Assembly (NCBI GenBank): GCA_965249055.1
Contig: CBDFKX010000002.1
Span: 2,957,800 to 3,021,799 of the forward strand
Direction of reading: 5' to 3'
Origin: Candidatus Aldehydirespiratoraceae bacterium
Lineage (GTDB): Bacteria; Actinomycetota; Acidimicrobiia; Acidimicrobiales; Aldehydirespiratoraceae
Length of the DNA: 64,000 nucleotides
Shown: positions 1-8,282 of the stretch, one piece after another
How positions within the stretch are numbered: the first letter of the stretch is position 1
Layout: each line of letters opens with the position of its first letter
Program-made: the position numbers and the translations under genes
Notes under the pieces: generated by a model
What the model was told of the DNA's origin: nothing
Database searches by the model: none
Seen by the model: only the letters and a program-made list of their open reading frames with translations

Positions 1-388
1 CGATGTGGTGGTCACCTCCATCGTGGATGGCGTGGACCTCGCAATCGATCCAAGCAATAGAACCGCTGATAACGGGCGAACCGGTGATCCTTGTGCTCCA
101 TTCGAGGCCGGCAAACTTGTCTTCTGACTTGCTCGCGAAAACGCCGCACACGTCGGCTTGGTCGTCACCGAGCACGTTGACGCAAAATCTGTCCGTCCCC
201 GACATCTTGATCCAAGTCGCAGATTCCTTGCCTGGACAGAACATGACCAGAGGTGGATCTAGCGAGACGCTGGCGAAAGATCCGATTGCCATGCCGACGG
301 GACCCTCGCCGGTTGGCGCAGTAACCACTGTCACGCCCGTGGCAAAGTGGCCGAGCACCCGTCGGAACTCACTTGAGTCAATAGACAT
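1..388 (-). CDS. flavin reductase family protein (3' end runs off the window)
   Basis: Not in the ORF track. My reverse-strand translation from the ATG at 386-388 gives MSIDSSEFRRVLGHFATGVTVVTAPTGEGPVGMAIGSFASVSLDPPLVMFCPGKES... This matches the GxFATGVTVVT / SFxSVSLxPPLV signature of NAD(P)H-flavin reductase domains. It begins 11 nt after the MBL gene stop. Confidence 0.75.
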   Translation of the reverse strand, partial: MSIDSSEFRRVLGHFATGVTVVTAPTGEGPVGMAIGSFASVSLDPPLVMFCPGKESATWIKMSGTDRFCVNVLGDDQADVCGVFASKSEDKFAGLEWSTRITGSPVISGSIAWIDCEVHAIHDGGDHHI

Positions 389-399
389 CCGGTTCCCTT

Positions 400-1344
400 C
401 TACGGCCGAACGGATTGCTCGCACAGGCCGGCGAAAGGCTCACTCATGGCGGAGAAAGTCAGGCTCGTGCCTTCGGTGGCCGCTAGCACAGTGCCTACGC
501 CAACTTCCGAACCCCGTTCGCTCAGGCGCGCGCTCATCTCATCGAGCGAGGCGTCGTCGTGAGAGGGGTCGTGATGAAACAGCACCAGCGTTTCAACACC
601 GGCCTGACGGGCGACCTCAAGTGCATACTCGGGCGTACTGTGACCCCAGGCCTGCTTCATCAATAGTTCATCGGGCCACAGTTGCCCGTCGTGAATCAAC
701 AGGTCGGCACCATCACACAGTTCAAGAACGGATTCATCGACATGTCTCGGATCGTGGATCGGCTCTTGGTGATCGGGAATATACGCGATTGACAAACCAT
801 GAAGATTGAGCCGGTAGCCGTTGGTGGTGCCGACATGGGGTACCGGTCTCGACATCACAGTGGCAAGGCCCACTGCAAAGTCGCTGTCGCAGACATCGTG
901 GAATTTGATGGTGGCTGGCAAATCGGTGGTTCGAATCGGGAAGAACGGCGGGGCAACAAAACGATCAAACGCCTCTGCCAACGACTCTCCGCGCTCAGCG
1001 CACCCATAGATGTTCAACGTGGTATCCGGACAAAGCAACGGCGCAAAAAATGGCAGACCCTGAATGTGGTCCCAGTGAAGATGTGTAACCAACGCATGCA
1101 GCGTCAACCCGCTGTGGGGCGACATTGCACAACCCCACGGGCGCAACCCCGTACCCAGGTCCAAAACGATCGGGTCGTGATCGGCAGTTTCAACCGAGAC
1201 GCAGCTGGTGTTGCCGCCATAGCGCTGCACCGTCGGACAACTACACGGCGTCGAACCACGAACACCGTGGAACGACACAACAACAGTCTCTTGCGTATCC
1301 CCCATTGACTTTGCACCGTACGCTAGCCGACTAGCCTCGCACAC
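400..1344 (-). CDS. MBL-fold metallo-hydrolase
   Basis: 314-aa ORF with the THLHWDHIQGLPFF (HxHxDH) zinc motif and a later HHDP motif. The true start may be the internal Met at about 1305. Confidence 0.8.
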   Translation of the reverse strand: MCEASRLAYGAKSMGDTQETVVVSFHGVRGSTPCSCPTVQRYGGNTSCVSVETADHDPIVLDLGTGLRPWGCAMSPHSGLTLHALVTHLHWDHIQGLPFFAPLLCPDTTLNIYGCAERGESLAEAFDRFVAPPFFPIRTTDLPATIKFHDVCDSDFAVGLATVMSRPVPHVGTTNGYRLNLHGLSIAYIPDHQEPIHDPRHVDESVLELCDGADLLIHDGQLWPDELLMKQAWGHSTPEYALEVARQAGVETLVLFHHDPSHDDASLDEMSARLSERGSEVGVGTVLAATEGTSLTFSAMSEPFAGLCEQSVRP

Positions 1345-1390: not shown

Positions 1391-2857
1391 GTGTGCCACA
1401 GTTGGCGAGTGCCCAATACGAAAACCGCTCCGCTCCCCGATGGTCTCGTAGCCGTTGTCAAAAAGGACTGCCCGACCTGTGTCCTAGTGGCACCAGTCTT
1501 AGCCGATATGGCCGAACGCATTGGAGTCTCAGTCATCACCCAGGACGACCCGACCTTTCCCCAAAGCGCCGACTGGGTAACCCACGATGCCGACCTCGCC
1601 TTGTCATGGCACAACCAAATCGAGACAGTACCCACGCTGCTGCGAGTCGACGACGGTTCCGAAGCCGATCGCATCGTCGGTTGGTCTCGCCAGGCTTGGG
1701 AGGAGTTCACTGGGCTCAACGGTCTCGGAACCGACCTTCCCGATTGGAGACCCGGATGCGGCTCACTGAGTGTCGATCCCAACCTCAGCGATGAACTCGC
1801 CGTGCGCTTCTCAGGTTCAATACTGAAGAGTCGGCGAATCGAACTCGCCGAGTTGGAAGATGAAGTGGAAGCCATGTTCGACCGCGGGTTCAGTGATGGA
1901 ATGCCGGTCGTACCCCCAACCGAGGCGCGTGTGCTGAGAATGCTTGAAGGCACAAGTCGCTCGGCGGAGGAGGTGGTGGCCGTCATACCACCCGATCTGG
2001 TCGAATGCACCGTCGAGAAAGTGGCTATCAACGCAGTAATGGCCGGCTGCAAGCCCGAGTATCTCCCTGTGGTGCTGAGCGCGGTCGAAGCAGCCTGCAC
2101 CGACGAGTTCAACATGCACGGACTGTTGGCCACCACTATGCCGGTAGGTCCGATCCTGATCGTCAACGGACCCATCCGTCACGAAATTCACATGAACAGC
2201 GGCCTCAATCTATTGGGCCAAGGGAACCGCGCCAACAACACCATCGGCCGTGCTCTCCAGCTGGTTATTCGCAATATCGGTGGAGGCAAACCCGGCGGTG
2301 TCGACCGCGCCACGCAGGGCAGCCCCTCAAAGATCGGGTTGTGCTTCGCCGAGGACGAAGAGGGCAGCGCCTTCGACACCTTCGCCGAATCTCGCGGTTT
2401 CGACCGCAACGTCTCCACCGTCACTCTGTTCCCCGGGGAAGGCCCCCGACTGATGTTCGATCAGAAGTCGCGTTCGCCGGAATCGCTCACCAAGCACTTC
2501 GCCGAAATGCTGCGCGTCAACGTCAGCCCGAGAATAGTCATGTCGATGGAAACCGTGATCGTGATGAGTCCTGAACATATGGCCCGATACCGAGATGCCT
2601 CCTGGGACAGGGCCCGCTTTCTGGCAGAACTTGAAGCGCTGCTGATGATCGACGGCGACGACATAATTGCCGGCTCCGGCGGAATCGAAGAGGGTATGCC
2701 GACATTACTCTCGGGCCATCAGCTACCGAAGTTCCCGCCTGGAGGGATTCATGTTGTTCACGGAGGCAGCCATGCTGGGTTGTTCTCTTCGACCATCGCT
2801 GGTTGGGTGACCGGCGCAACCGGTAGCGTGACTGTCACAAAGGAGATCACTCGATGA
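1391..2857 (+). CDS. thioredoxin-fold domain fused to a ~370-aa domain of unknown function
   Basis: 488-aa ORF. The N-terminal ~105 aa has a CPTC redox motif and an ETVPT cis-Pro loop, as in thioredoxin-like folds. I cannot assign the remainder (AINAVMAGCKPEYLPVV, IVNGPI, GQGNRANNTIGRA). Its stop overlaps the next gene's start (ATGA at 2854-2857). Confidence 0.7.
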   Translation: MCHSWRVPNTKTAPLPDGLVAVVKKDCPTCVLVAPVLADMAERIGVSVITQDDPTFPQSADWVTHDADLALSWHNQIETVPTLLRVDDGSEADRIVGWSRQAWEEFTGLNGLGTDLPDWRPGCGSLSVDPNLSDELAVRFSGSILKSRRIELAELEDEVEAMFDRGFSDGMPVVPPTEARVLRMLEGTSRSAEEVVAVIPPDLVECTVEKVAINAVMAGCKPEYLPVVLSAVEAACTDEFNMHGLLATTMPVGPILIVNGPIRHEIHMNSGLNLLGQGNRANNTIGRALQLVIRNIGGGKPGGVDRATQGSPSKIGLCFAEDEEGSAFDTFAESRGFDRNVSTVTLFPGEGPRLMFDQKSRSPESLTKHFAEMLRVNVSPRIVMSMETVIVMSPEHMARYRDASWDRARFLAELEALLMIDGDDIIAGSGGIEEGMPTLLSGHQLPKFPPGGIHVVHGGSHAGLFSSTIAGWVTGATGSVTVTKEITR

Positions 2858-3372
2858 CTGTTGTTCTTGATCCCACCGCTGAGTTGCGGCCCGAAAAACG
2901 TGAGCGTGTCGCTAGACCCGAGTCTCTCAACGGACTCACGGTCGGACTACTCGACATCTCCAAACCCCGCGGAGATATTTTTCTCAACCGTGTCGAGGAA
3001 AAGCTGACCGGCCTCGGTGCCAACGTGAAACGCTTCAAAAAGCCGACGTTCACCAAACCAGCGCCGATCGATCTGCGCCATGAGATTGCCGTGTCCTGCG
3101 ACGCGGTGATCGAAGCGCTCGCCGATTGAGGTTCCTGCACGACGTGCAGTGTGCACGACATCAACGATCTTGAACGCCGCGGCATTCCAGGAGTGTTCGT
3201 TGCCACCGTTGAGTTCGCCGACGGTGCCGAGCAACAAAGCAAGAGCCTCGGAGGTGACATAGCCCACGTCTTGACCGAGCACCCCATCCAGGACCGCACC
3301 GACTCAGAGATGGTCGCTATCGCCGATCAAGCAATCGACGCCCTGTTGAGTTCGCTTACAGGCCCCGGTTAA
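2854..3372 (+). CDS. UGSC family selenoprotein (TGA at 3127-3129 read as selenocysteine)
   Basis: ORFs 2854..3129 and 3151..3372 share a frame (297 nt apart) and are separated by one TGA. Read-through gives 172 aa with ...AVIEALAD-U-GSCTTCSVHDINDLERRGIP..., the U-G-S-C motif that names the family. Confidence 0.8.
3135..3157 (+). promoter_or_regulatory. candidate bacterial SECIS hairpin(s)
   Basis: There are two overlapping perfect 6-bp hairpins, starting 6 and 14 nt after the UGA. They are CTGCAC-GAC-GTGCAG (3135-3149) and CGTGCA-GTG-TGCACG (3143-3157). Confidence 0.5.
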
Positions 3373-3377
3373 CCCCT

Positions 3378-3504
3378 CCAGCCAACAAGCCCCGCCAGCC
3401 AACAAGCCGCGCCGACCGGCCAGCCCCGCCGACCGGCCAGCCCCGCCGTAGCAGCGAAGCTAGGTACTGGCCAGCGAATTACGTGTACTGGCCAAAAACT
3501 ACGT
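3378..3504. repeat. three consecutive pairs of short tandem duplications in a convergent intergenic region
   Basis: CCAGCCAACAAGCC(C/G)CG x2 at 3378-3411. CCGACCGGCCAGCCCCG x2 at 3412-3445. GTACTGGCCA(GCGAAT/AAAAAC)TACGT x2 at 3464-3504. The last copy overlaps the xsc stop codon. Confidence 0.85.
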
Positions 3505-5265
3505 GTATTCGGCGTACTTCTTCAGGTGGCGGACCGGGCGGCTCAAAGCATCCTTACGGAACGGATCGCCGAGTTCTTTGGTGGTCATGACTTCGATCAC
3601 TGTGGTCTGCCGTTTGGTCATCTGATCGTCGATCGCCCGTTCTAGGGCCGGACCGACATCATCAAGCTGATCAACACGAACACCCTTCGCTCCCATCGCT
3701 TGAGCGATTTGCGCGTAGTTCTCCCCCGCTTCAAGTTCCCCGGCCACAAAACGGCGATCGTAGAAATCAACCTGGTTCTTCTTTTCGGCACCCCATTGGC
3801 GATTGTGGAACACCACCGCGGTGACCGGAATATCGTGGCGCACCGCGGTCATCACCTCAACCATGCTCATAGCCCAGGCACCATCGCCAGCGTACGCCAC
3901 CGCCGGACGATCATCAGCAGCCTTCTTGGCTCCAATAATGGTCGGCAGCGCATAGCCGCAGTTACCCCAACTCATGGCTGCCAAAAACGACCTGGGCTCT
4001 TCGAAGCGCAGGTAGCTGTTGGACACCGAGTTGATGTTGCCGATGTCGGTGGACACCATTACCCGAGCTGGCATGGCCCGCTCCAGTTCCCGCAACACCT
4101 GGCGTGGGTGCAGCCAACTGCCTTCTTCGGCCGCTGCTTCTTTGATCATGTCGATACTGAAGTCGTCGGTTTCTTCGGTCCAATCGTCGAGTTCGTCTTC
4201 CCACGCGGTCTTCTCAGAAAGCAGCGTCGACTCTCGCTCGGCACGGTTTTGGTCGGCCACCAGCGTACGTTGAGCCAGCCGCTCTGTCAGCGCCCCAGCA
4301 GCTGCACCGGCATCACCGCAAATCCCGACATCAATCTTTTTGACCAAGCCGAGCATCTTCGAATCAGCATCAACCTGGATGATCTTGGCCTCTGTCGGCC
4401 AATAGTCGAGGCCATGCTGAGGCAAGGTGCCAAAGGGCCCCAAACGGGTGCCGAGCGCCAGCACCACGTCAGCCCGTGCGATCAACTTCATCGCCGCCTT
4501 TGAGCCTTGGTAGCCGAGCGGTCCACACCACTGTGGGTGGCCGGCCGGAAACGAGTCGTTGTGCAGGTAGCTGTTGACCACCGGACAGCCGAGTCTTTCG
4601 GCCAAGGCGACCGTTGCGGCCATACCATCTCCGATCACCACTCCACCGCCGCTGATCATGACTGGGAACTGCGCGCTCGCCAAGAGGTCGGCCGCTTCGT
4701 TGAGTGTGCGCTCACCACCGGGTCCGCGATCGAGCCGCATGGGGGTTCCGATCTCCACATTGATGTCGCCATAGAAGCGGTCACGGGGGATGTTGAGTTG
4801 CGTTGGACCCATCTCCGATAGCGCCCGGTCGAAGCAACGAGCCGTGATCTCTGCCATTCGGTGTTCGTTGTTGATGTGCCCCTGATACTTGGTGAACTCC
4901 TCAAACATCGGAAGCTGATTGGCTTCTTGGAAGCCGCCGAGTCCCATCCCCATCGTGCCGGCTTCGGGGGTAACGATGACAACGGGACTGTGTGCCCAAA
5001 AGGCTGCCGCGATCGCGGTCACACAGTTGGAAATACCAGGGCCATTCTGCCCGATCACGACTCCGTGGCGGCCACTGACCCGGGCATACCCGTCTGCCAT
5101 GTGGGCTGCACCCTGTTCGTGAACCACCGGTACCAACTCAATACCTGCCGGCTCAAAAATGTCCATGGCGTCCATGAACGCGCTGCCCATGATGCCAAAG
5201 ACAGTGGTCACACCGTTGGCCACCATGGTTTCGACAAACGCTTCGCTGGGAGTCATCCGGGTCAT
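3499..5265 (-). CDS. xsc: sulfoacetaldehyde acetyltransferase (ThDP-dependent)
   Basis: 588 aa. ThDP motif GDGAWAMSMVEVMTAV...FHNRQWGAEKKN. The blocks LGYQGSKAAMKLIARADVVLALGTRLGPFGTLPQHGLDYWP and ELGDPFRKDA closely match my memory of Xsc sequences. A pta gene lies in the same cluster. Confidence 0.8.
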   Translation of the reverse strand: MTRMTPSEAFVETMVANGVTTVFGIMGSAFMDAMDIFEPAGIELVPVVHEQGAAHMADGYARVSGRHGVVIGQNGPGISNCVTAIAAAFWAHSPVVIVTPEAGTMGMGLGGFQEANQLPMFEEFTKYQGHINNEHRMAEITARCFDRALSEMGPTQLNIPRDRFYGDINVEIGTPMRLDRGPGGERTLNEAADLLASAQFPVMISGGGVVIGDGMAATVALAERLGCPVVNSYLHNDSFPAGHPQWCGPLGYQGSKAAMKLIARADVVLALGTRLGPFGTLPQHGLDYWPTEAKIIQVDADSKMLGLVKKIDVGICGDAGAAAGALTERLAQRTLVADQNRAERESTLLSEKTAWEDELDDWTEETDDFSIDMIKEAAAEEGSWLHPRQVLRELERAMPARVMVSTDIGNINSVSNSYLRFEEPRSFLAAMSWGNCGYALPTIIGAKKAADDRPAVAYAGDGAWAMSMVEVMTAVRHDIPVTAVVFHNRQWGAEKKNQVDFYDRRFVAGELEAGENYAQIAQAMGAKGVRVDQLDDVGPALERAIDDQMTKRQTTVIEVMTTKELGDPFRKDALSRPVRHLKKYAEYT

Positions 5266-5304
5266 GTTTCATCCTCCATTCCAGACCGTCGCAAGAGCCT
5301 ATAA

Positions 5305-5907
5305 CTAATCTGCAAGACTATCTAGCGCAGAATTTCGCTCAAGATGGCGGATCCCGGCAATCAAGAGTTCCAGTAGATGATCGAACGTGTCATCAAGGTC
5401 GTGTTCGTGCGGATGTCCGTCACCAGATTCAAGATGGGAAAACCCGTGGAATGAACTCCGTAACCCACGTGCCACATGTACACGCTCATCCTCGTCAATG
5501 CTGAAACTCCCCAGAGCTCGAGCAATGACCGCCACGATCCGTTCGACCGCTTCTTCGAGTTCAACATCACCCGCGCAGGGATATCGGTCGGTGGCGGCGT
5601 ACAAACCGGGGTGAGTCCGCACTACCTCCCGCCAAGCCCTCCCGATGGCTACGACTGCGTTCTCTCCCGATACACCGATGGCCGCCTCAGTGAGCGAGCT
5701 AGCGAGTTTGGCACGGCCTCTCAAAGCCAGCAGTTTGACAAGATCGTCGTACCCGTCGACATGTCTATACAGCGCCGGTTGACGAACGCCGAGTTCGTCG
5801 GCCACACGAGTGAGGGTGACCGCGTCAAACCCTTCTCTGTCTGCTATTTCTGAGGCGCATTCAATTACTTGCGCCGGGTCCAGAGTCCGCTTGGGCGATC
5901 CGCTCAT
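5305..5907 (-). CDS. TetR/AcrR family transcriptional regulator
   Basis: 200 aa with the N-terminal HTH TLTRVADELGVRQPALYRHV. Confidence 0.85.
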   Translation of the reverse strand: MSGSPKRTLDPAQVIECASEIADREGFDAVTLTRVADELGVRQPALYRHVDGYDDLVKLLALRGRAKLASSLTEAAIGVSGENAVVAIGRAWREVVRTHPGLYAATDRYPCAGDVELEEAVERIVAVIARALGSFSIDEDERVHVARGLRSSFHGFSHLESGDGHPHEHDLDDTFDHLLELLIAGIRHLERNSALDSLAD

Positions 5908-5931
5908 GCGTTAGAAGCTATCACCGTTACG

Positions 5932-6867
5932 TTAGAGCGGACGCAACGCCGAGGCTTGGATTGAAGCGATAACCGCCACGTTGACAATGTCGTCCTCCGA
6001 GCAGCCACGCGAAAGGTCATGCAACACGCCATCAAGACCCTGCAGCAACGGCCCGAAAGCAAGCGCTTGACCCAGACGTTCGGTGATCTTGTAGGCGATG
6101 TTGCCGGAGTCAAGATCTGGGAAGACGAACACATTGGCTCTGCCGGCAACTTCAGAGTCGGGAGCCTTGACATCGGCAACCGCGGGAAGCCAAGCGGCAT
6201 CAAACTGCAACTCACCATCAATCTTGAGATGCGGCGCAGCCTGCTGAGCAATCGCGGTAGCGCTCCGCACCTTTTCGACACGCGGGTGTTGCGCACTCCC
6301 CCTGGTTGAAAACGAGAGCATGGCGACACGAGGCTCCTCACCGCAAAGTTGAGCAAACGTAGCTGCACTCGAAATAGCAACGGAGGCCAATTGCTGATCG
6401 TCGGGATCTGGCAACACTGCACAGTCTCCGTAGACAATCGGCCGACCGTCAGGCAGCACAAAAAAGAAGCAGCTACTCAGCGCTTCAACTCCGGGCGCGA
6501 CCCCGAGCACTCGCAACCCGGCCCGCACCACATCCGCGCTGGCGCGGCTTGCTCCACCCACACACCCCGCAGCCCAGCCTGTCTTCACCAAGGCCGCAGA
6601 AATCACCAGTGGATCGTCAACATCGAGCCGACGACCAGCCCACGGTCCTGTGTTTGCAGCAGCCAGTTCGTCAACGAGGCGCTCCGCTGGGCCATGAGCA
6701 ATCTCGGCGAGCAAGCCGAAGTCCCTGCCCGCAACGAGTGCTTCGGTCAAACCCTGCGCATTGAGGCGATCCGCGGCGGCGATAGCTCGCGGATCATTTG
6801 CGTCGGCCAAGATGATGCGCTGCGGGTTCGCCCGAGCGCGGCTGTACCAATCGTCGAGAACGCTCAC
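5932..6867 (-). CDS. pta: phosphate acetyltransferase (short form)
   Basis: 311 aa with PTA_PTB-type blocks (YGDCAVLPDP, AMLSFSTRGSA, NVFVFPDLDSGNIAYK). Overlaps the upstream aminotransferase gene by 4 nt. Confidence 0.85.
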   Translation of the reverse strand: MSVLDDWYSRARANPQRIILADANDPRAIAAADRLNAQGLTEALVAGRDFGLLAEIAHGPAERLVDELAAANTGPWAGRRLDVDDPLVISAALVKTGWAAGCVGGASRASADVVRAGLRVLGVAPGVEALSSCFFFVLPDGRPIVYGDCAVLPDPDDQQLASVAISSAATFAQLCGEEPRVAMLSFSTRGSAQHPRVEKVRSATAIAQQAAPHLKIDGELQFDAAWLPAVADVKAPDSEVAGRANVFVFPDLDSGNIAYKITERLGQALAFGPLLQGLDGVLHDLSRGCSEDDIVNVAVIASIQASALRPL

Positions 6868-8282
6868 AGCCGGGCGTTCAGCCCTTCCCTCGCCAAGGGA
6901 TCAGCCGCTTCTCGGCCATGCGCCTTCAGCCAACCGCCCACGCGGTCGAGCACTTGGTCGACCCGCTTGAGCAGGTCGTCGATCACGGTGGCGTCTGCCA
7001 CCAACGGCGGTGCCACAGCCAACATGGCAGCACCTCTAGAGTCGGGCCGGACCAGAACGCGCGCCTCGCGCACAAAGCGTTCTAGAACTCCGCCCGGTAG
7101 TAATTCAGCGAACTCGTCGTCAGTAAGATCCGAACCGCTGCGGCGGTCACGCATCAACTCCACGGAATGGAAGTACCCGGCGCCCCGCACGTCTTTGACA
7201 CAACGATGGGATTCCATCAGCGCGCGCAAGCCGTTCTTGAGGCGGTCCTCGTTTGCCAGAACGCGGTCGAATACCTTTTCGTCGCGCATGGCGGTCATGT
7301 TGGCCACCGCTACCGCTGTGGCCACTGGGTGGCCGCCGAACGTGGCCCCGTGGACGAACATCGCAGCGGGCGAGTCCCACACCCGATCCACCAGCGAGTC
7401 CCGTACAAGCAAACCTCCCAGAGGCACGTATGCGCTGGTGACACCCTTGGCGAAGGTGATCATGTCCGGCACGACGCCATAACGCTCGCTGCCGAACCAG
7501 TGACCGAGGCGTCCGAACGAGTTGATCACCTCATCTGCGCAGAGCAGCACGCCGTAGGTGTCGCAGATGCGGCGCAGTTCTTGCCAATAGCCGTCGGGTG
7601 GGACCAGTGCTCCCCTGCCGTTCTGTACTGGTTCTGCAATCACCATGGCCACCGTCTCAGGGCCCTCGGCGAGGATCGCCTGCTCGACGGCTGTTACACA
7701 CGGCAGTTCTGAAGCAGGAACGCCCTCGGCAGAACAGCCGAGTGTGTTGTCTACGTGGCGCACAAACCCGGCGAGCATCGGCTCGAACGGATCGCGGAAG
7801 TTGGGAATGCCGGTCACGGTCAGCGCACCCAGGGTGGTGCCGTGATAGGCCCATCGACGTGCAATCACCTTTTGGCGACTCTCAGCGCCGTTCGCCAAGT
7901 GGTAACAACGAGCGAACTTGAGGGCGGATTCAACCGCTTCTGAGCCAGAGTTCACAAAGAACACTCGGTTGAGATCGGCGGGTGCCACCGACGCGATCAG
8001 CGACGACGCCTCGATGGACGAAGGGTGGGCGAAACTCCAGTTGGGGCTGAAAGCCAGTTTGTCCATCTGCTTGGCCGCAACCGCGGTCAGATCACTGCGA
8101 CCGTGGCCGAGGTTGGTGCAGAACAACCCGGAGAGCCCGTCCAGGTATTCGTTGCCCTCGGTGTCCCAGACGTAACAGCCTTCACCTCGTTCGATGACGA
8201 GCAGGTCGTCGCGTTGCCAAGCATCGCCACGCGTAAAATGCGGCACCAAGTGGTCCCGGGCCTTGGCTCTAATCTCGGTCAA
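6864..8282 (-). CDS. class-III (omega) aminotransferase, candidate taurine:pyruvate aminotransferase by context
   Basis: 472 aa with class-III blocks (VNSGSEAVESALKFAR, ADEVINSFGRLG, TFAKGVTSAYVPLG carrying the PLP Lys). TTG start preceded by GGGGGA. Substrate is inferred only from linkage to pta and xsc. Confidence 0.75.
   Translation of the reverse strand: MTEIRAKARDHLVPHFTRGDAWQRDDLLVIERGEGCYVWDTEGNEYLDGLSGLFCTNLGHGRSDLTAVAAKQMDKLAFSPNWSFAHPSSIEASSLIASVAPADLNRVFFVNSGSEAVESALKFARCYHLANGAESRQKVIARRWAYHGTTLGALTVTGIPNFRDPFEPMLAGFVRHVDNTLGCSAEGVPASELPCVTAVEQAILAEGPETVAMVIAEPVQNGRGALVPPDGYWQELRRICDTYGVLLCADEVINSFGRLGHWFGSERYGVVPDMITFAKGVTSAYVPLGGLLVRDSLVDRVWDSPAAMFVHGATFGGHPVATAVAVANMTAMRDEKVFDRVLANEDRLKNGLRALMESHRCVKDVRGAGYFHSVELMRDRRSGSDLTDDEFAELLPGGVLERFVREARVLVRPDSRGAAMLAVAPPLVADATVIDDLLKRVDQVLDRVGGWLKAHGREAADPLAREGLNARL

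What the first reader, a model, noticed from the sequence alone, without database searches (positions are those of the whole stretch)
1391..3372. Thioredoxin-fold/unknown-domain fusion translationally coupled to the UGSC selenoprotein: an uncharacterised two-gene redox module
Seen: the 488-aa gene ends in an ATGA overlap with the UGSC start (2854-2857). Its first ~105 residues look like a thioredoxin fold (CPTC plus ETVPT cis-Pro loop). A GCGS tetrapeptide follows at about residue 123. I cannot place the remaining ~370 aa in any named family. The partner protein carries U-G-S-C-T-T-C. Inference: a CxxC protein coupled to a UxxCxxC selenoprotein suggests a dedicated thiol/selenol redox relay with unknown substrate. 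The divergently transcribed neighbours are an MBL hydrolase and a flavin reductase, and the convergent neighbour is the sulfite-releasing xsc cluster. Either could hint at the chemistry, but I cannot show a functional link.
Basis: inference. Interest (0 to 1): 0.65.

Follow-up and report, generated by a model that had tools for sequence, protein, structure and literature searches.

The report
Selenoprotein UGSC and its dedicated partner
The two overlapping genes form a real module conserved across many bacterial phyla: a thioredoxin-like protein with a large domain of unknown fold, paired with the abundant but unexplained selenoprotein UGSC, most likely forming a thiol/selenol-driven reductase whose substrate is still unknown.

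Summary
ORF 1391-2857 ends in an ATGA overlap with a UGSC gene (2854-3372). That gene has an in-frame TGA at 3127-3129 and a covariation-supported SECIS hairpin.

The large protein has three parts: a thioredoxin fold (CPTC, cis-Pro), a flexible linker with an invariant PG-C-GS, and a 344-aa domain ("U1"). U1 matches no Pfam or NCBIfam model and has no convincing PDB relative.

The linkage is close to obligate:
- 78 of 79 informative genome loci from many phyla carry UGSC directly downstream.
- 74 of 77 informative UGSC-seeded metagenome loci carry U1 directly upstream.
- Stand-alone and tandem U1 genes also sit beside UGSC.
- U1-UGSC fusions exist in both orders.

Other U1 proteins carry Prx-like or ferredoxin:thioredoxin-reductase-like modules at the N-terminus, so the input is always thiol-disulfide chemistry.

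New here: the linker Cys123 is selenocysteine (PG-U-GS, with its own SECIS hairpin) in widespread marine Acidimicrobiia and in one betaproteobacterial MAG. NCBI names the resulting truncated ORFs only "thioredoxin family protein".

The xsc cluster is never linked to the module elsewhere (0/80). MBL plus flavin reductase is upstream in only about 22 of 80 genome loci, all labelled Actinomycetota or Acidimicrobiia except one.

Substrate and chemistry remain unknown. The best analogy is GrdB/PrdB-type selenoprotein reductases.

The parts
1391..2857 (+). Gene for the Trx-fold / linker / U1-domain protein. The longest ORF is 488 aa; the probable true start is the GTG at 1409, giving 482 aa.
   Evidence: ORF. 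More than 8000 homologues, the closest called at 482 aa. Alignment.
1430..1720 (+). Thioredoxin-fold domain (about residues 14-110), with CPTC at 1469-1480 and the cis-Pro loop ETVPT at 1622-1636.
   Evidence: AF2 pLDDT 84-96. Foldseek hits to thioredoxins, prob 1.0. Profile versus PDB thioredoxins E 2e-4. C27, C30 and P81 are invariant or nearly so.
1751..1765 (+). Linker motif P-G-C-G-S (residues 121-125). The Cys123 codon TGC is at 1757-1759. This position is TGA (Sec) in some homologues.
   Evidence: Invariant in 35 close relatives. Conserved in all Trx- and Prx-fused forms. TGA at this position in 2/80 genome loci and 5/51 metagenome loci, each with a downstream hairpin. The linker that follows (residues 124-174) has pLDDT below 50 and is presumably flexible.
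1823..2854 (+). U1 domain (residues 145-488), a family of unknown function. The near-invariant Cys220 codon is at 2048-2050.
   Evidence: AF2 pLDDT 95.4, pTM 0.93. No Pfam or NCBIfam match. Best PDB fold match has TM of only 0.30-0.35. Conserved residues.
2840..2845 (+). Shine-Dalgarno sequence AAGGAG, 8 nt upstream of the UGSC ATG and inside the end of the upstream gene.
   Evidence: Read directly from the sequence.
2854..3372 (+). UGSC-family selenoprotein gene (172 aa including Sec92). Its start overlaps the upstream stop (ATGA, 2854-2857).
   Evidence: PF24696 E 8e-40; NF041046 151 bits against a cut-off of 125.
3127..3129 (+). In-frame TGA read as selenocysteine (A-D-U-G-S-C-T-T-C).
   Evidence: The same codon position is TGA in 76 and TAG in 2 of 78 genome loci, and TGA in 79 of 79 scorable metagenome loci. 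It is never Cys in the Trx-fused clade.
3141..3159 (+). SECIS-like hairpin: stem 3141-3147 / 3153-3159, apical loop 3148-3152 (A-G-U-G-U), beginning 11 nt after the UGA. In this window, pair 16-32 is an A-A mismatch.
   Evidence: Across 81 sequences, 95.4% of cells pair and 3 pairs show compensatory changes. Pair 18-30 is GC 56, GU 21, AU 4 and never unpaired. G23 and U24 are invariant. 0 of 500 shuffles reach the observed values. A competing hairpin shows no covariation.

Best explanation
The two genes encode the subunits of one thiol/selenol-dependent reductase.

Shown: U1-domain proteins and UGSC proteins are almost always encoded side by side and are sometimes fused. UGSC is decoded with selenocysteine. 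The linker residue 123 alternates between Cys and Sec in nature. U1 is preceded by thiol-disulfide redox modules in several architectures (Trx-like, Prx-like, FTR-like).

Inferred: the two proteins form a complex. Reducing equivalents enter through the Trx-fold CPTC (C27/C30). They pass to the Cys123 (or Sec) carried on the flexible PG-C-GS linker, which acts as a swinging arm. They then re-reduce a selenenylsulfide formed between UGSC Sec92 and Cys95 (or Cys98), or U1 Cys220. The active site is composite, made by the conserved face of U1 (D169, T177, C220, H243, R280, N282, R287, E321, H396) together with the UGSC Sec loop.

By analogy with GrdB/PrdB, whose Sec loop UGSC locally resembles, Sec92 would attack a bound substrate. 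That substrate is probably small and anionic. The Se-adduct would be resolved by a neighbouring Cys, and the oxidised centre would be recycled by the fused Trx module. The substrate and the bond reduced are not known.
For: Gene linkage:
- 78 of 79 informative GTDB loci from Actinomycetota, Myxococcota, Chloroflexota, Spirochaetota, Nitrospirales and Alpha-, Beta- and Deltaproteobacteria have UGSC directly downstream.
- In the reverse test, 74 of 77 informative UGSC-seeded metagenome loci have U1 directly upstream on the same strand.
- Stand-alone U1 (P0180, P0189, P0196, P0223, P0238) and tandem U1 (P0183) also sit next to UGSC, in either order.
- Fusions exist as UGSC-U1 (P0260, P0262, P0265) and U1-UGSC (P0190).

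Sec decoding:
- The codon is TGA (or TAG) in all 78 scored genome loci. The SECIS hairpin covaries, and a Cys-form homologue lacks it.

Redox role of residue 123:
- It is TGA in L011 and L075, and in the marine clades represented by P0271, P0295, P0319 and P0323. These are 113-157-aa ORFs ending in ...F-K-P-G, found on many long contigs and in many samples.
- There is a single in-frame stop and the frame stays open through U1.
- A hairpin at positions 16-23 / 29-36 covaries at pair 21-31 (UA versus CG).

Input modules:
- AhpC/Redoxin-like N-termini (P0136, P0138, P0172, P0186, P0195, P0197), some monothiol (CPTS or CPTT) but keeping the PG-C motif.
- Recurrent FTR-catalytic-subunit fusions (P0218, P0368-P0373).

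GrdB-like Sec loop:
- UGSC residues 78-120 match TIGR01917 positions 333-374 at E 6e-5. Six of 14 diverse UGSC proteins hit GrdF and 4 of 14 hit GrdB at E <= 0.01.

Other:
- selA and selB lie directly beside the module in 11-12 of 80 loci, in two different arrangements.
Against: - No biochemical data exist for any member. Reviews from 2022 and 2026 still list UGSC as of unknown function.
- The complex and the electron path are inferred only. I could not model the heteromer, and the AF2 linker is disordered.
- The GrdB similarity is local, about 40 residues, and far below the family cut-off (22 bits versus 602).
- Stand-alone U1/UGSC pairs have neither a Trx domain nor the linker Cys, so the relay is accessory to the core.
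- Some Cys-type fusion proteins lack Cys95 and Cys98 (P0265, P0262), so the resolving residue is not fixed.
- A few UGSC genes have no U1 within 3 kb (L154, L158) and one U1 gene has no UGSC downstream (L066).
Confidence: 0.62

Rival explanations
1. A metal or Fe-S enzyme rather than a thiol/selenol reductase. In this reading, U1 is a remote relative of the alpha subunit of class I (4Fe-4S) fumarate or tartrate hydro-lyases. The UGSC U/C-x-x-C-x-x-C motif, plus U1 Cys220, ligates a cluster or metal. UGSC would play the part of the small beta subunit.
For: The only PDB fold matches with E < 1e-3 for both AF2 models are class I fumarate hydratases: 7xky_A at E 2e-4, and L. major FH at E 6e-5 to 8e-4. 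The subunit sizes (about 340 aa plus about 170 aa) and the adjacent or fused gene layout mimic two-subunit FH. CxxCxxC is a classic cluster-binding spacing.
Against: TM-scores are only 0.2-0.35 with rmsd of 14-17 A. There is no Pfam Fumerase hit, even at E <= 1, in 45 family members. Only one Cys (C220) is conserved in U1 across the family, where FH uses three. Cys95 and Cys98 are missing in some Cys-type homologues. Sec is essentially fixed at position 92 and also appears in the linker, which fits nucleophilic redox catalysis. All fused N-terminal modules are dithiol-exchange domains.
Confidence: 0.1
2. A generic antioxidant system, such as a peroxidase or a sulfoxide- or disulfide-repair enzyme. 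In this reading, UGSC is the peroxidatic or repair selenoprotein, the Trx/Prx-like module is its recycling partner, and U1 is mainly a scaffold or regulatory domain.
For: Most bacterial selenoproteins with UxxC are thiol oxidoreductases. Relatives carry AhpC/TSA-Redoxin-like N-termini. The module is abundant in oxic surface waters. It usually stands alone without conserved metabolic neighbours.
Against: U1 is the largest and most conserved part. It has invariant Arg, Asp, His and Glu residues and occurs in tandem or multiple copies, which suggests a substrate-binding catalytic domain. Stand-alone U1/UGSC pairs sit among CoA ligase, thiolase-like, MaoC, SDR and TRAP-transporter genes, which points to small-molecule metabolism. 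The window's Trx domain gives no Prx hit.
Confidence: 0.17
3. A true glycine/proline-reductase-type enzyme. In this reading, the large protein is a proprotein that self-cleaves at Gly122-Cys123 to give a pyruvoyl group, as in PrdA and GrdE, and UGSC is the PrdB/GrdB equivalent.
For: UGSC has a local GrdB/GrdF-like Sec loop. An invariant Cys sits in an exposed flexible segment between two domains.
Against: Position 123 is Sec in many homologues, and each carries its own SECIS hairpin. A costly recoded residue is unlikely to be sacrificed to make a pyruvoyl group. Stand-alone U1 proteins lack the segment entirely. No member matches Gly_reductase PF09338 or any Grd/Prd partner model. The scan that compared flanking ORFs across the 80 genome loci found no third gene family shared by more than about 25 loci; I did not search the flanks for GrdA specifically.
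Confidence: 0.04
4. The two genes are merely neighbours, through chance or lineage synteny, and have unrelated functions.
For: MBL and flavin reductase are also conserved upstream in related Acidimicrobiia, which shows that synteny alone can persist.
Against: The pairing holds across at least eight phylum-level groups. It survives changes of gene order and occurs as fusions in both orientations.
Confidence: 0.01

Closest known systems
Selenoprotein B of the glycine, sarcosine, betaine and D-proline reductases (GrdB, GrdF, GrdH, PrdB), working with thioredoxin
   Same: Both have a Sec in a U-x-x-C-x-x-C loop, placed between a beta-strand and a helix. UGSC 78-120 aligns to GrdB 333-374 (E 6e-5). 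Both are two-subunit designs in which a small Sec protein works with a larger substrate-binding partner. Established knowledge of these systems says that reducing power comes from a thioredoxin-type dithiol, and here that module is fused to the partner.
   Different: UGSC is 172 aa, against 240-436 aa, and scores 22 bits against a 602-bit cut-off. The partner (U1) is unrelated to the pyruvoyl proproteins PrdA and GrdE. No GrdA, GrdC or GrdD equivalents are conserved nearby. The hosts are mostly aerobic aquatic bacteria rather than amino-acid-fermenting anaerobes. A second Sec/Cys site lies in the partner's linker.
The 'UGSC/Unknown_1' fusion proteins noted by Zhang and Gladyshev 2008 (PMC2398784)
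   Same: This is the same selenoprotein family. Fusion proteins of the type they describe (UGSC N-terminal to a conserved unknown domain) were recovered here as P0260, P0262 and P0265, and their C-terminal domain is U1.
   Different: The paper records only the fusion, in one sentence and one figure. That figure is an image I could not read, so the identity of U1 with Unknown_1 is probable but not proven. It does not describe the near-obligate operon, the Trx, Prx or FTR-fused architectures, the linker Cys/Sec site or the predicted structure.
Two-subunit class I (4Fe-4S) fumarate hydratase (M. jannaschii 7xky; L. major FH)
   Same: It is the best, though weak, structural match to U1. It also has a large subunit plus a small one of about 170-180 aa, encoded adjacently or fused.
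   Different: TM is only 0.2-0.35. The three cluster-binding Cys are absent. There is no sequence-family match. U1's partner is a selenoprotein and its input modules are dithiol oxidoreductases.
Reductases fused to their own thioredoxin-fold electron donor (for example Trx-MsrA/B fusions of the PilB type; comparison from general knowledge)
   Same: A Trx-fold CxxC module is covalently attached to the enzyme it recycles.
   Different: The catalytic domain here is uncharacterised. A separate selenoprotein subunit and an extra linker Cys/Sec intervene.

Membership tests
UGSC family (Pfam PF24696 / NCBIfam NF041046) | Whole-protein HMM score above the curated cut-off | tested here: met
   137.3 bits against 25 (Pfam) and 151 bits against 125 (NCBIfam) for 2854-3372 with U read as C.
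UGSC family (Pfam PF24696 / NCBIfam NF041046) | U/C-G-S-C motif with Sec encoded by an in-frame UGA followed by a SECIS hairpin | tested here: met
   A-D-U-G-S-C-T-T-C with TGA at 3127-3129. The hairpin at 3141-3159 is supported by covariation in 81 sequences.
Thioredoxin-fold superfamily | Trx fold with CxxC at the start of helix 1 and a cis-Pro loop | tested here: met
   CPTC at 27-30 and V-P81-T. The AF2 secondary-structure order is E18-23, H28-43, E46-50 ... E82-87, E90-96, H100-107. Foldseek hits to thioredoxins at prob 1.0. Profile E 2e-4.
Thioredoxin proper (TIGR01068) / TraF-like (PF13728) | HMM score above the curated cut-off | tested here: not met
   17 bits against 96.8, and 18.2 bits against 23. 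The NCBI names 'thioredoxin' and 'TraF' for homologues therefore describe the fold only.
Glycine/betaine/sarcosine/D-proline reductase selenoprotein B | Family HMM above cut-off | tested here: not met
   TIGR01917 22.1 bits against 602. TIGR01918 15.7 bits against 65. The match is local only.
Glycine/betaine/sarcosine/D-proline reductase selenoprotein B | U-x-x-C-x-x-C active-site motif | tested here: met
   U92, C95, C98. C98 is present in 13 of 14 diverse members.
Glycine/betaine/sarcosine/D-proline reductase selenoprotein B | Pyruvoyl-forming proprotein partner (GrdE/PrdA, PF09338) encoded alongside | tested here: not met
   The partner gene gives no such hit. Its candidate cleavage Cys is Sec in homologues.
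Glycine/betaine/sarcosine/D-proline reductase selenoprotein B | Reductive C-N cleavage activity that depends on a dithiol | not testable with these tools
   Needs enzymology.
Class I Fe-S fumarate/tartrate hydro-lyase alpha subunit | Shared fold | tested here: inconclusive
   These are the top Foldseek hits (E 6e-5 to 2e-4, prob 0.9-0.97), but TM is 0.2-0.35 and rmsd 14-17 A.
Class I Fe-S fumarate/tartrate hydro-lyase alpha subunit | Three conserved cluster-ligating cysteines and a Fumerase Pfam match | tested here: not met
   Only C220 is conserved family-wide. There is no PF05681 hit in 45 members at E <= 1.

The most novel reading that the evidence does not exclude
U1 plus UGSC is a previously undescribed class of selenium-dependent reductase, with a new catalytic fold. 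It is widespread in aerobic aquatic and soil bacteria. In part of its range it is a two-selenoprotein machine: Sec92 in UGSC, plus a Sec in the PG-U-GS swinging linker of the partner, which is an uncatalogued selenoprotein family currently annotated as a truncated 'thioredoxin family protein'. It would carry out a GrdB/PrdB-like reductive bond cleavage on a still unknown, probably anionic metabolite. Electrons would be delivered by fused Trx-, Prx- or ferredoxin:thioredoxin-reductase-like modules.
Probability: 0.3. Interest if true: 0.85.

Novelty: new variant of a known kind. Interest (0 to 1): 0.68.

Why it matters
[quoted passage not shown] Reviews from 2022 and 2026 still list it with no known function.

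This work makes the question experimentally approachable in three ways:
- UGSC nearly always comes with one specific partner domain, which gives a defined two-protein system to co-express.
- The partner is wired to thiol-disulfide input modules, which gives a predicted electron path and specific residues to mutate or trap.
- The partner is itself a selenoprotein in abundant marine Acidimicrobiia, which adds a probable new entry to the prokaryotic selenoproteome. It also shows that standard annotation splits this gene into "thioredoxin family protein" plus "hypothetical protein".

The U1 domain has thousands of members, all named "hypothetical" wherever a source gives a name, and no solved relative. 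That makes it a good target for structure determination and enzyme discovery.

Tried and rejected
- Sequence searches of the large protein against Pfam, NCBIfam and PDB gave only weak Trx hits for residues 18-100 and nothing for residues 145-488.
- Foldseek of a high-confidence U1 model against PDB and BFVD gave only marginal class I fumarate hydratase similarity, and nothing among viral proteins. I considered the Fe-S hydro-lyase reading and ranked it low.
- A UGSC profile against PDB found no relative.
- RNAfold on the single window sequence favoured a different small hairpin at positions 9-23 and gave a z-score of +1.5. I rejected that hairpin because it shows no covariation, while the 15-33 hairpin does.
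- Rfam and tRNA scans of the window found nothing. No selA or selB lies in the window.
- I tested the neighbourhood hypotheses (xsc/taurine cluster, MBL, flavin reductase) and rejected them as general links.
- An unbiased clustering of flanking ORFs in 80 loci found no third conserved gene. Shadow ORFs in these high-GC genomes made the clustering noisy.
- I looked for Sec at other cysteines of the large protein (C27, C30, C220) in the 80 genome loci and found none. Those loci were selected with a pattern that requires C220, so its absence there is uninformative.
- I could not read panel A of Figure S1 in the 2008 paper, and part of its sequence supplement is truncated. Whether PG-U-GS forms were already collected there remains unknown.
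- The protein downstream of UGSC (163-167 aa) in marine Sec-form loci is only weakly Redoxin-like and is unrelated to the 156-aa protein in L085.
Full report
**1. Observation**

The window contains a 488-aa ORF at 1391-2857 (+). Its TGA stop shares three bases with the ATG of the next ORF (A2854-T-G-A2857), and an AAGGAG Shine-Dalgarno sequence lies at 2840-2845. Read in one frame, 2854-3372 encodes a 172-residue protein with one in-frame TGA (3127-3129), in the context EALAD-U-GSCTTCSVHD. With U read as C, it scores well above the curated cut-offs of Pfam UGSC (PF24696, 137 bits against 25) and NCBIfam NF041046 (151 bits against 125).

Close homologues are called at 482 aa, so the GTG at 1409 is the likelier start.

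**2. Selenocysteine decoding**

I compared 81 homologous sequences starting at the Sec codon.
- A hairpin with stem positions 15-21 / 27-33 (window 3141-3147 / 3153-3159) pairs in 95.4% of cells.
- Three pairs show compensatory changes. Pair 18-30 is GC 56, GU 21 and AU 4, and is never unpaired.
- G23 and U24 in the apical loop are invariant even though they sit in codons that could vary synonymously.
- No shuffle out of 500 reaches the observed values.
- An overlapping alternative hairpin, which RNAfold preferred on the single sequence, shows no covariation.
- A Cys-type homologue (L085) lacks the hairpin.

The codon is TGA in 76 and TAG in 2 of 78 genome loci. The two TAG cases are Geodermatophilaceae, where tRNASec(CUA) and TAG-encoded UGSC proteins have already been reported.

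**3. The large protein**

An AF2 model built from 35 close homologues gives a confident thioredoxin fold for residues 11-120. Foldseek matches it to thioredoxins (prob 1.0, TM about 0.6 on the target). Residues 124-174 are a disordered linker.

Residues 145-488 were modelled alone with a more diverse 45-sequence alignment and gave pLDDT 95.4 and pTM 0.93. I call this domain U1.
- U1 has no Pfam or NCBIfam match, even at E <= 1, in 45 members, and no PDB sequence relative.
- Its best structural matches are class I Fe-S fumarate hydratases, at E about 1e-4 but with TM of only 0.2-0.35.
- Nothing turned up among viral structures.
- The family is large: 5433 representatives at 50% identity have E <= 1e-3. 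Sources that give a name call the stand-alone U1 proteins 'hypothetical protein', and the Trx-fused forms 'thioredoxin' or 'hypothetical protein'.
- Family-wide conserved residues include D169, P172, T177, T207, C220 (the only near-invariant Cys), G260, R280, N282, R287, E321, P394 and G459. H243 and H396 are invariant within the Trx-fused clade.

**4. Linkage with UGSC**

- Forward test: a scan of one genome per GTDB species returned 80 loci from Actinomycetota, Myxococcota, Chloroflexota, Spirochaetota, Nitrospirales and several proteobacterial classes, among others. Of the 79 with sequence downstream, 78 have a UGSC gene immediately after the U1 gene. The exception is L066.
- Reverse test: 80 metagenome loci were seeded with UGSC. 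In 74 of them a U1 gene sits directly upstream on the same strand. Three of the others have no upstream sequence, and three (L125, L154, L158) are real exceptions.
- Every stand-alone U1 protein I could place also sits beside UGSC, upstream or downstream: P0180, P0189, P0196, P0223 and P0238. So does a tandem-U1 protein, P0183.
- Fusion proteins exist in both orders: UGSC-U1 in P0260, P0262 and P0265, and U1-UGSC in P0190. The first type fits the 'UGSC/Unknown_1' fusion mentioned in one sentence by Zhang and Gladyshev in 2008.
- Nothing else is conserved around the module. The next most frequent flanking gene families occur in 25 or fewer of 80 loci.
- selA and selB (both above cut-off) abut the module in 11-12 loci. 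The arrangement is selA-selB-module in Actinomycetota and module-selA-selB in Beta- and Gammaproteobacteria.

**5. The neighbours proposed as hints**

xsc (TIGR03457, 991 bits), pta, an aminotransferase and a TetR regulator form a sulfoacetaldehyde/taurine cluster convergent to the module. xsc is linked to the module in 0 of 80 other loci. MBL plus flavin reductase lie upstream in about 22 of 80 loci. All of these are labelled Actinomycetota or Acidimicrobiia except L046, which is labelled Acidobacteriota. These are best read as lineage synteny, not as part of the module.

**6. Evidence that the module is a thiol/selenol relay**

(a) The N-terminal extension of U1 varies, but wherever one was recognised it is a thiol-disulfide module (P0207's N-terminus gave no match). 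It can be Trx-like as here, AhpC/TSA-Redoxin-like (P0136, P0138, P0172, P0186, P0195, P0197), or the catalytic subunit of ferredoxin:thioredoxin reductase (PF02943; P0218 and six further clusters, P0368-P0373).

(b) Some Prx-like forms are monothiol (CPTS or CPTT), yet they keep the PG-C motif of the linker.

(c) Position 123, the Cys of PG-C-GS, is TGA in some homologues.
- It is TGA in L011 (Acidimicrobiaceae) and L075 (a betaproteobacterial MAG).
- A search with the N-terminal 116 residues of L011 returned 88 proteins. Most are ORFs of about 110-160 aa, and all eight short ORFs I inspected end in ...F-K-P-G. Several come from dozens to hundreds of contigs and samples, including Tara.
- In L092, L096 and L099 the DNA shows a single in-frame TGA. 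The frame then stays open through the whole U1 domain, and UGSC follows.
- Five of 51 metagenome loci that cover the linker have the TGA.
- All Sec forms carry a hairpin at positions 16-23 / 29-36 after the UGA, with loop CGGGC. Pair 21-31 covaries (CG 5, UA 3) and pair 18-34 varies between CG and UG. The Cys-type window sequence has no such hairpin.

A natural Sec/Cys alternation is an accepted indicator of a catalytic redox cysteine. This is general knowledge from the selenoprotein literature, not something tested here. NCBI names these 117-aa pieces 'thioredoxin family protein' or 'TraF'. I found no PG-U-GS family in the GOS supplements that were readable, nor in the 2026 review.

**7. Mechanism**

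UGSC locally resembles the Sec loop of the glycine, sarcosine and proline reductase B proteins. UGSC 78-120 matches GrdB 333-374 at E 6e-5, and 6 of 14 diverse UGSC proteins hit GrdF. It fails family membership by a wide margin, and its partner is not a pyruvoyl proprotein.

The model I favour (confidence about 0.6) is a heteromeric reductase.
- U1 binds the substrate.
- UGSC Sec92 is the nucleophile.
- Cys95, Cys98 or U1 Cys220 resolves the adduct to a selenenylsulfide.
- The fused Trx module re-reduces it through the mobile linker Cys123 (or Sec).

Gene pairing, Sec decoding, the Cys/Sec site and the nature of the fused modules are shown. The complex, the order of electron transfer and the chemistry are inferred.

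Stand-alone U1/UGSC systems sit among CoA-ligase, thiolase-like plus DUF35, MaoC, SDR and TRAP-transporter genes. Together with the conserved arginines in U1, this weakly suggests an anionic organic substrate. That is speculation.

**8. Rivals**

- Fe-S or metal reading (FH-like fold plus CxxCxxC): kept at about 0.1. The fold match is marginal, the FH cysteines are absent, and Cys95 and Cys98 are dispensable in some homologues.
- Generic antioxidant role: about 0.17.
- Pyruvoyl proprotein: about 0.04. It is disfavoured because the putative cleavage residue is Sec in many homologues.
- Chance adjacency: excluded.

**9. Verdict**

The window's locus is an ordinary (Cys123) member of a module that is widespread but essentially undescribed beyond the UGSC family entry and one 2008 sentence.

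I rate it a new variant of a known kind: a Trx-linked selenoprotein reductase with an unknown catalytic domain. Interest is about 0.68. It ties one of the most abundant orphan selenoproteins to a defined partner. It also reveals a probable uncatalogued selenoprotein and turns 'function unknown' into a short list of feasible experiments.

Noticed in passing
L022:7299-7301 and L082:1947-1949 (homologous to window 3127-3129): The UGSC Sec codon is TAG instead of TGA in Candidatus Blastococcus massiliensis and a Geodermatophilus MAG, and the same SECIS hairpin is present. This matches the published tRNASec(CUA) recoding in Geodermatophilaceae (PMC5330540).
   Followed up: partly
L011:5935-5937, L075:5338-5340, L092:5424-5426, L096:3352-3354, L099:3358-3360 (homologous to window 1757-1759): The linker Cys123 codon is TGA in these homologues, with a dedicated hairpin 13 nt downstream. 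Gene callers and NCBI split the gene into a 113-157-aa 'thioredoxin family protein' and a roughly 320-aa hypothetical protein. This is probably an uncatalogued selenoprotein family.
   Followed up: yes
L048, L054, L056, L065, L069, L079 (upstream of the module); L038, L055, L057, L074, L083 (downstream); L058 (downstream on the opposite strand): selA and selB (L057 selA only, L038 and L083 selB only) lie directly beside the Trx-U1/UGSC pair, in several arrangements and in different phyla. In these genomes the module may be a principal client of the Sec machinery.
   Followed up: partly
P0218, P0368-P0373 (no window coordinates): These U1 proteins have an N-terminal ferredoxin:thioredoxin reductase catalytic-subunit domain (PF02943) instead of the Trx fold. 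This implies ferredoxin-driven input in that lineage.
   Followed up: partly
window 3499-8282 (-): This is a sulfoacetaldehyde/taurine-type cluster: xsc (TIGR03457, 991 bits), a TetR-family regulator, pta and a class-III aminotransferase. It is convergent to the module but xsc is not linked to the module in any of 80 related loci.
   Followed up: partly
window 1-1344 (-): An MBL-fold (Lactamase_B_2) gene and a flavin reductase (HsaB/FerA-like, cut by the window edge) are divergently transcribed from the module. The same pair is upstream in about 22 of 80 loci, all labelled Actinomycetota or Acidimicrobiia except L046 (labelled Acidobacteriota). In the annotated relatives a hexapeptide-repeat gene follows.
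   Followed up: partly
L085:2235-5985; L088:3230-5917: Some systems have several U1 copies in a row next to one UGSC: a 714-aa tandem-U1 protein plus a 338-aa U1, or two U1 genes of about 350 aa. This suggests hetero-oligomeric U1 assemblies.
   Followed up: no
L154:3001-3498, L158:3001-3498, L125:402-911, L066:494-1927: These are rare exceptions to the pairing. Three UGSC genes have no U1 in the available flanks (3 kb on each side for L154 and L158, about 400 nt upstream for L125). L154 sits among phosphotriesterase-like, thiolase-like and NUDIX-like genes, judged by eye from the ORF translations. One Trx-U1 gene has no UGSC downstream.
   Followed up: partly
L100:3001-4568: An ORF for the Trx part (ending at the Sec codon) is followed by a PAPS-reductase gene instead of U1. 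This could be a rearrangement or an assembly chimera.
   Followed up: no
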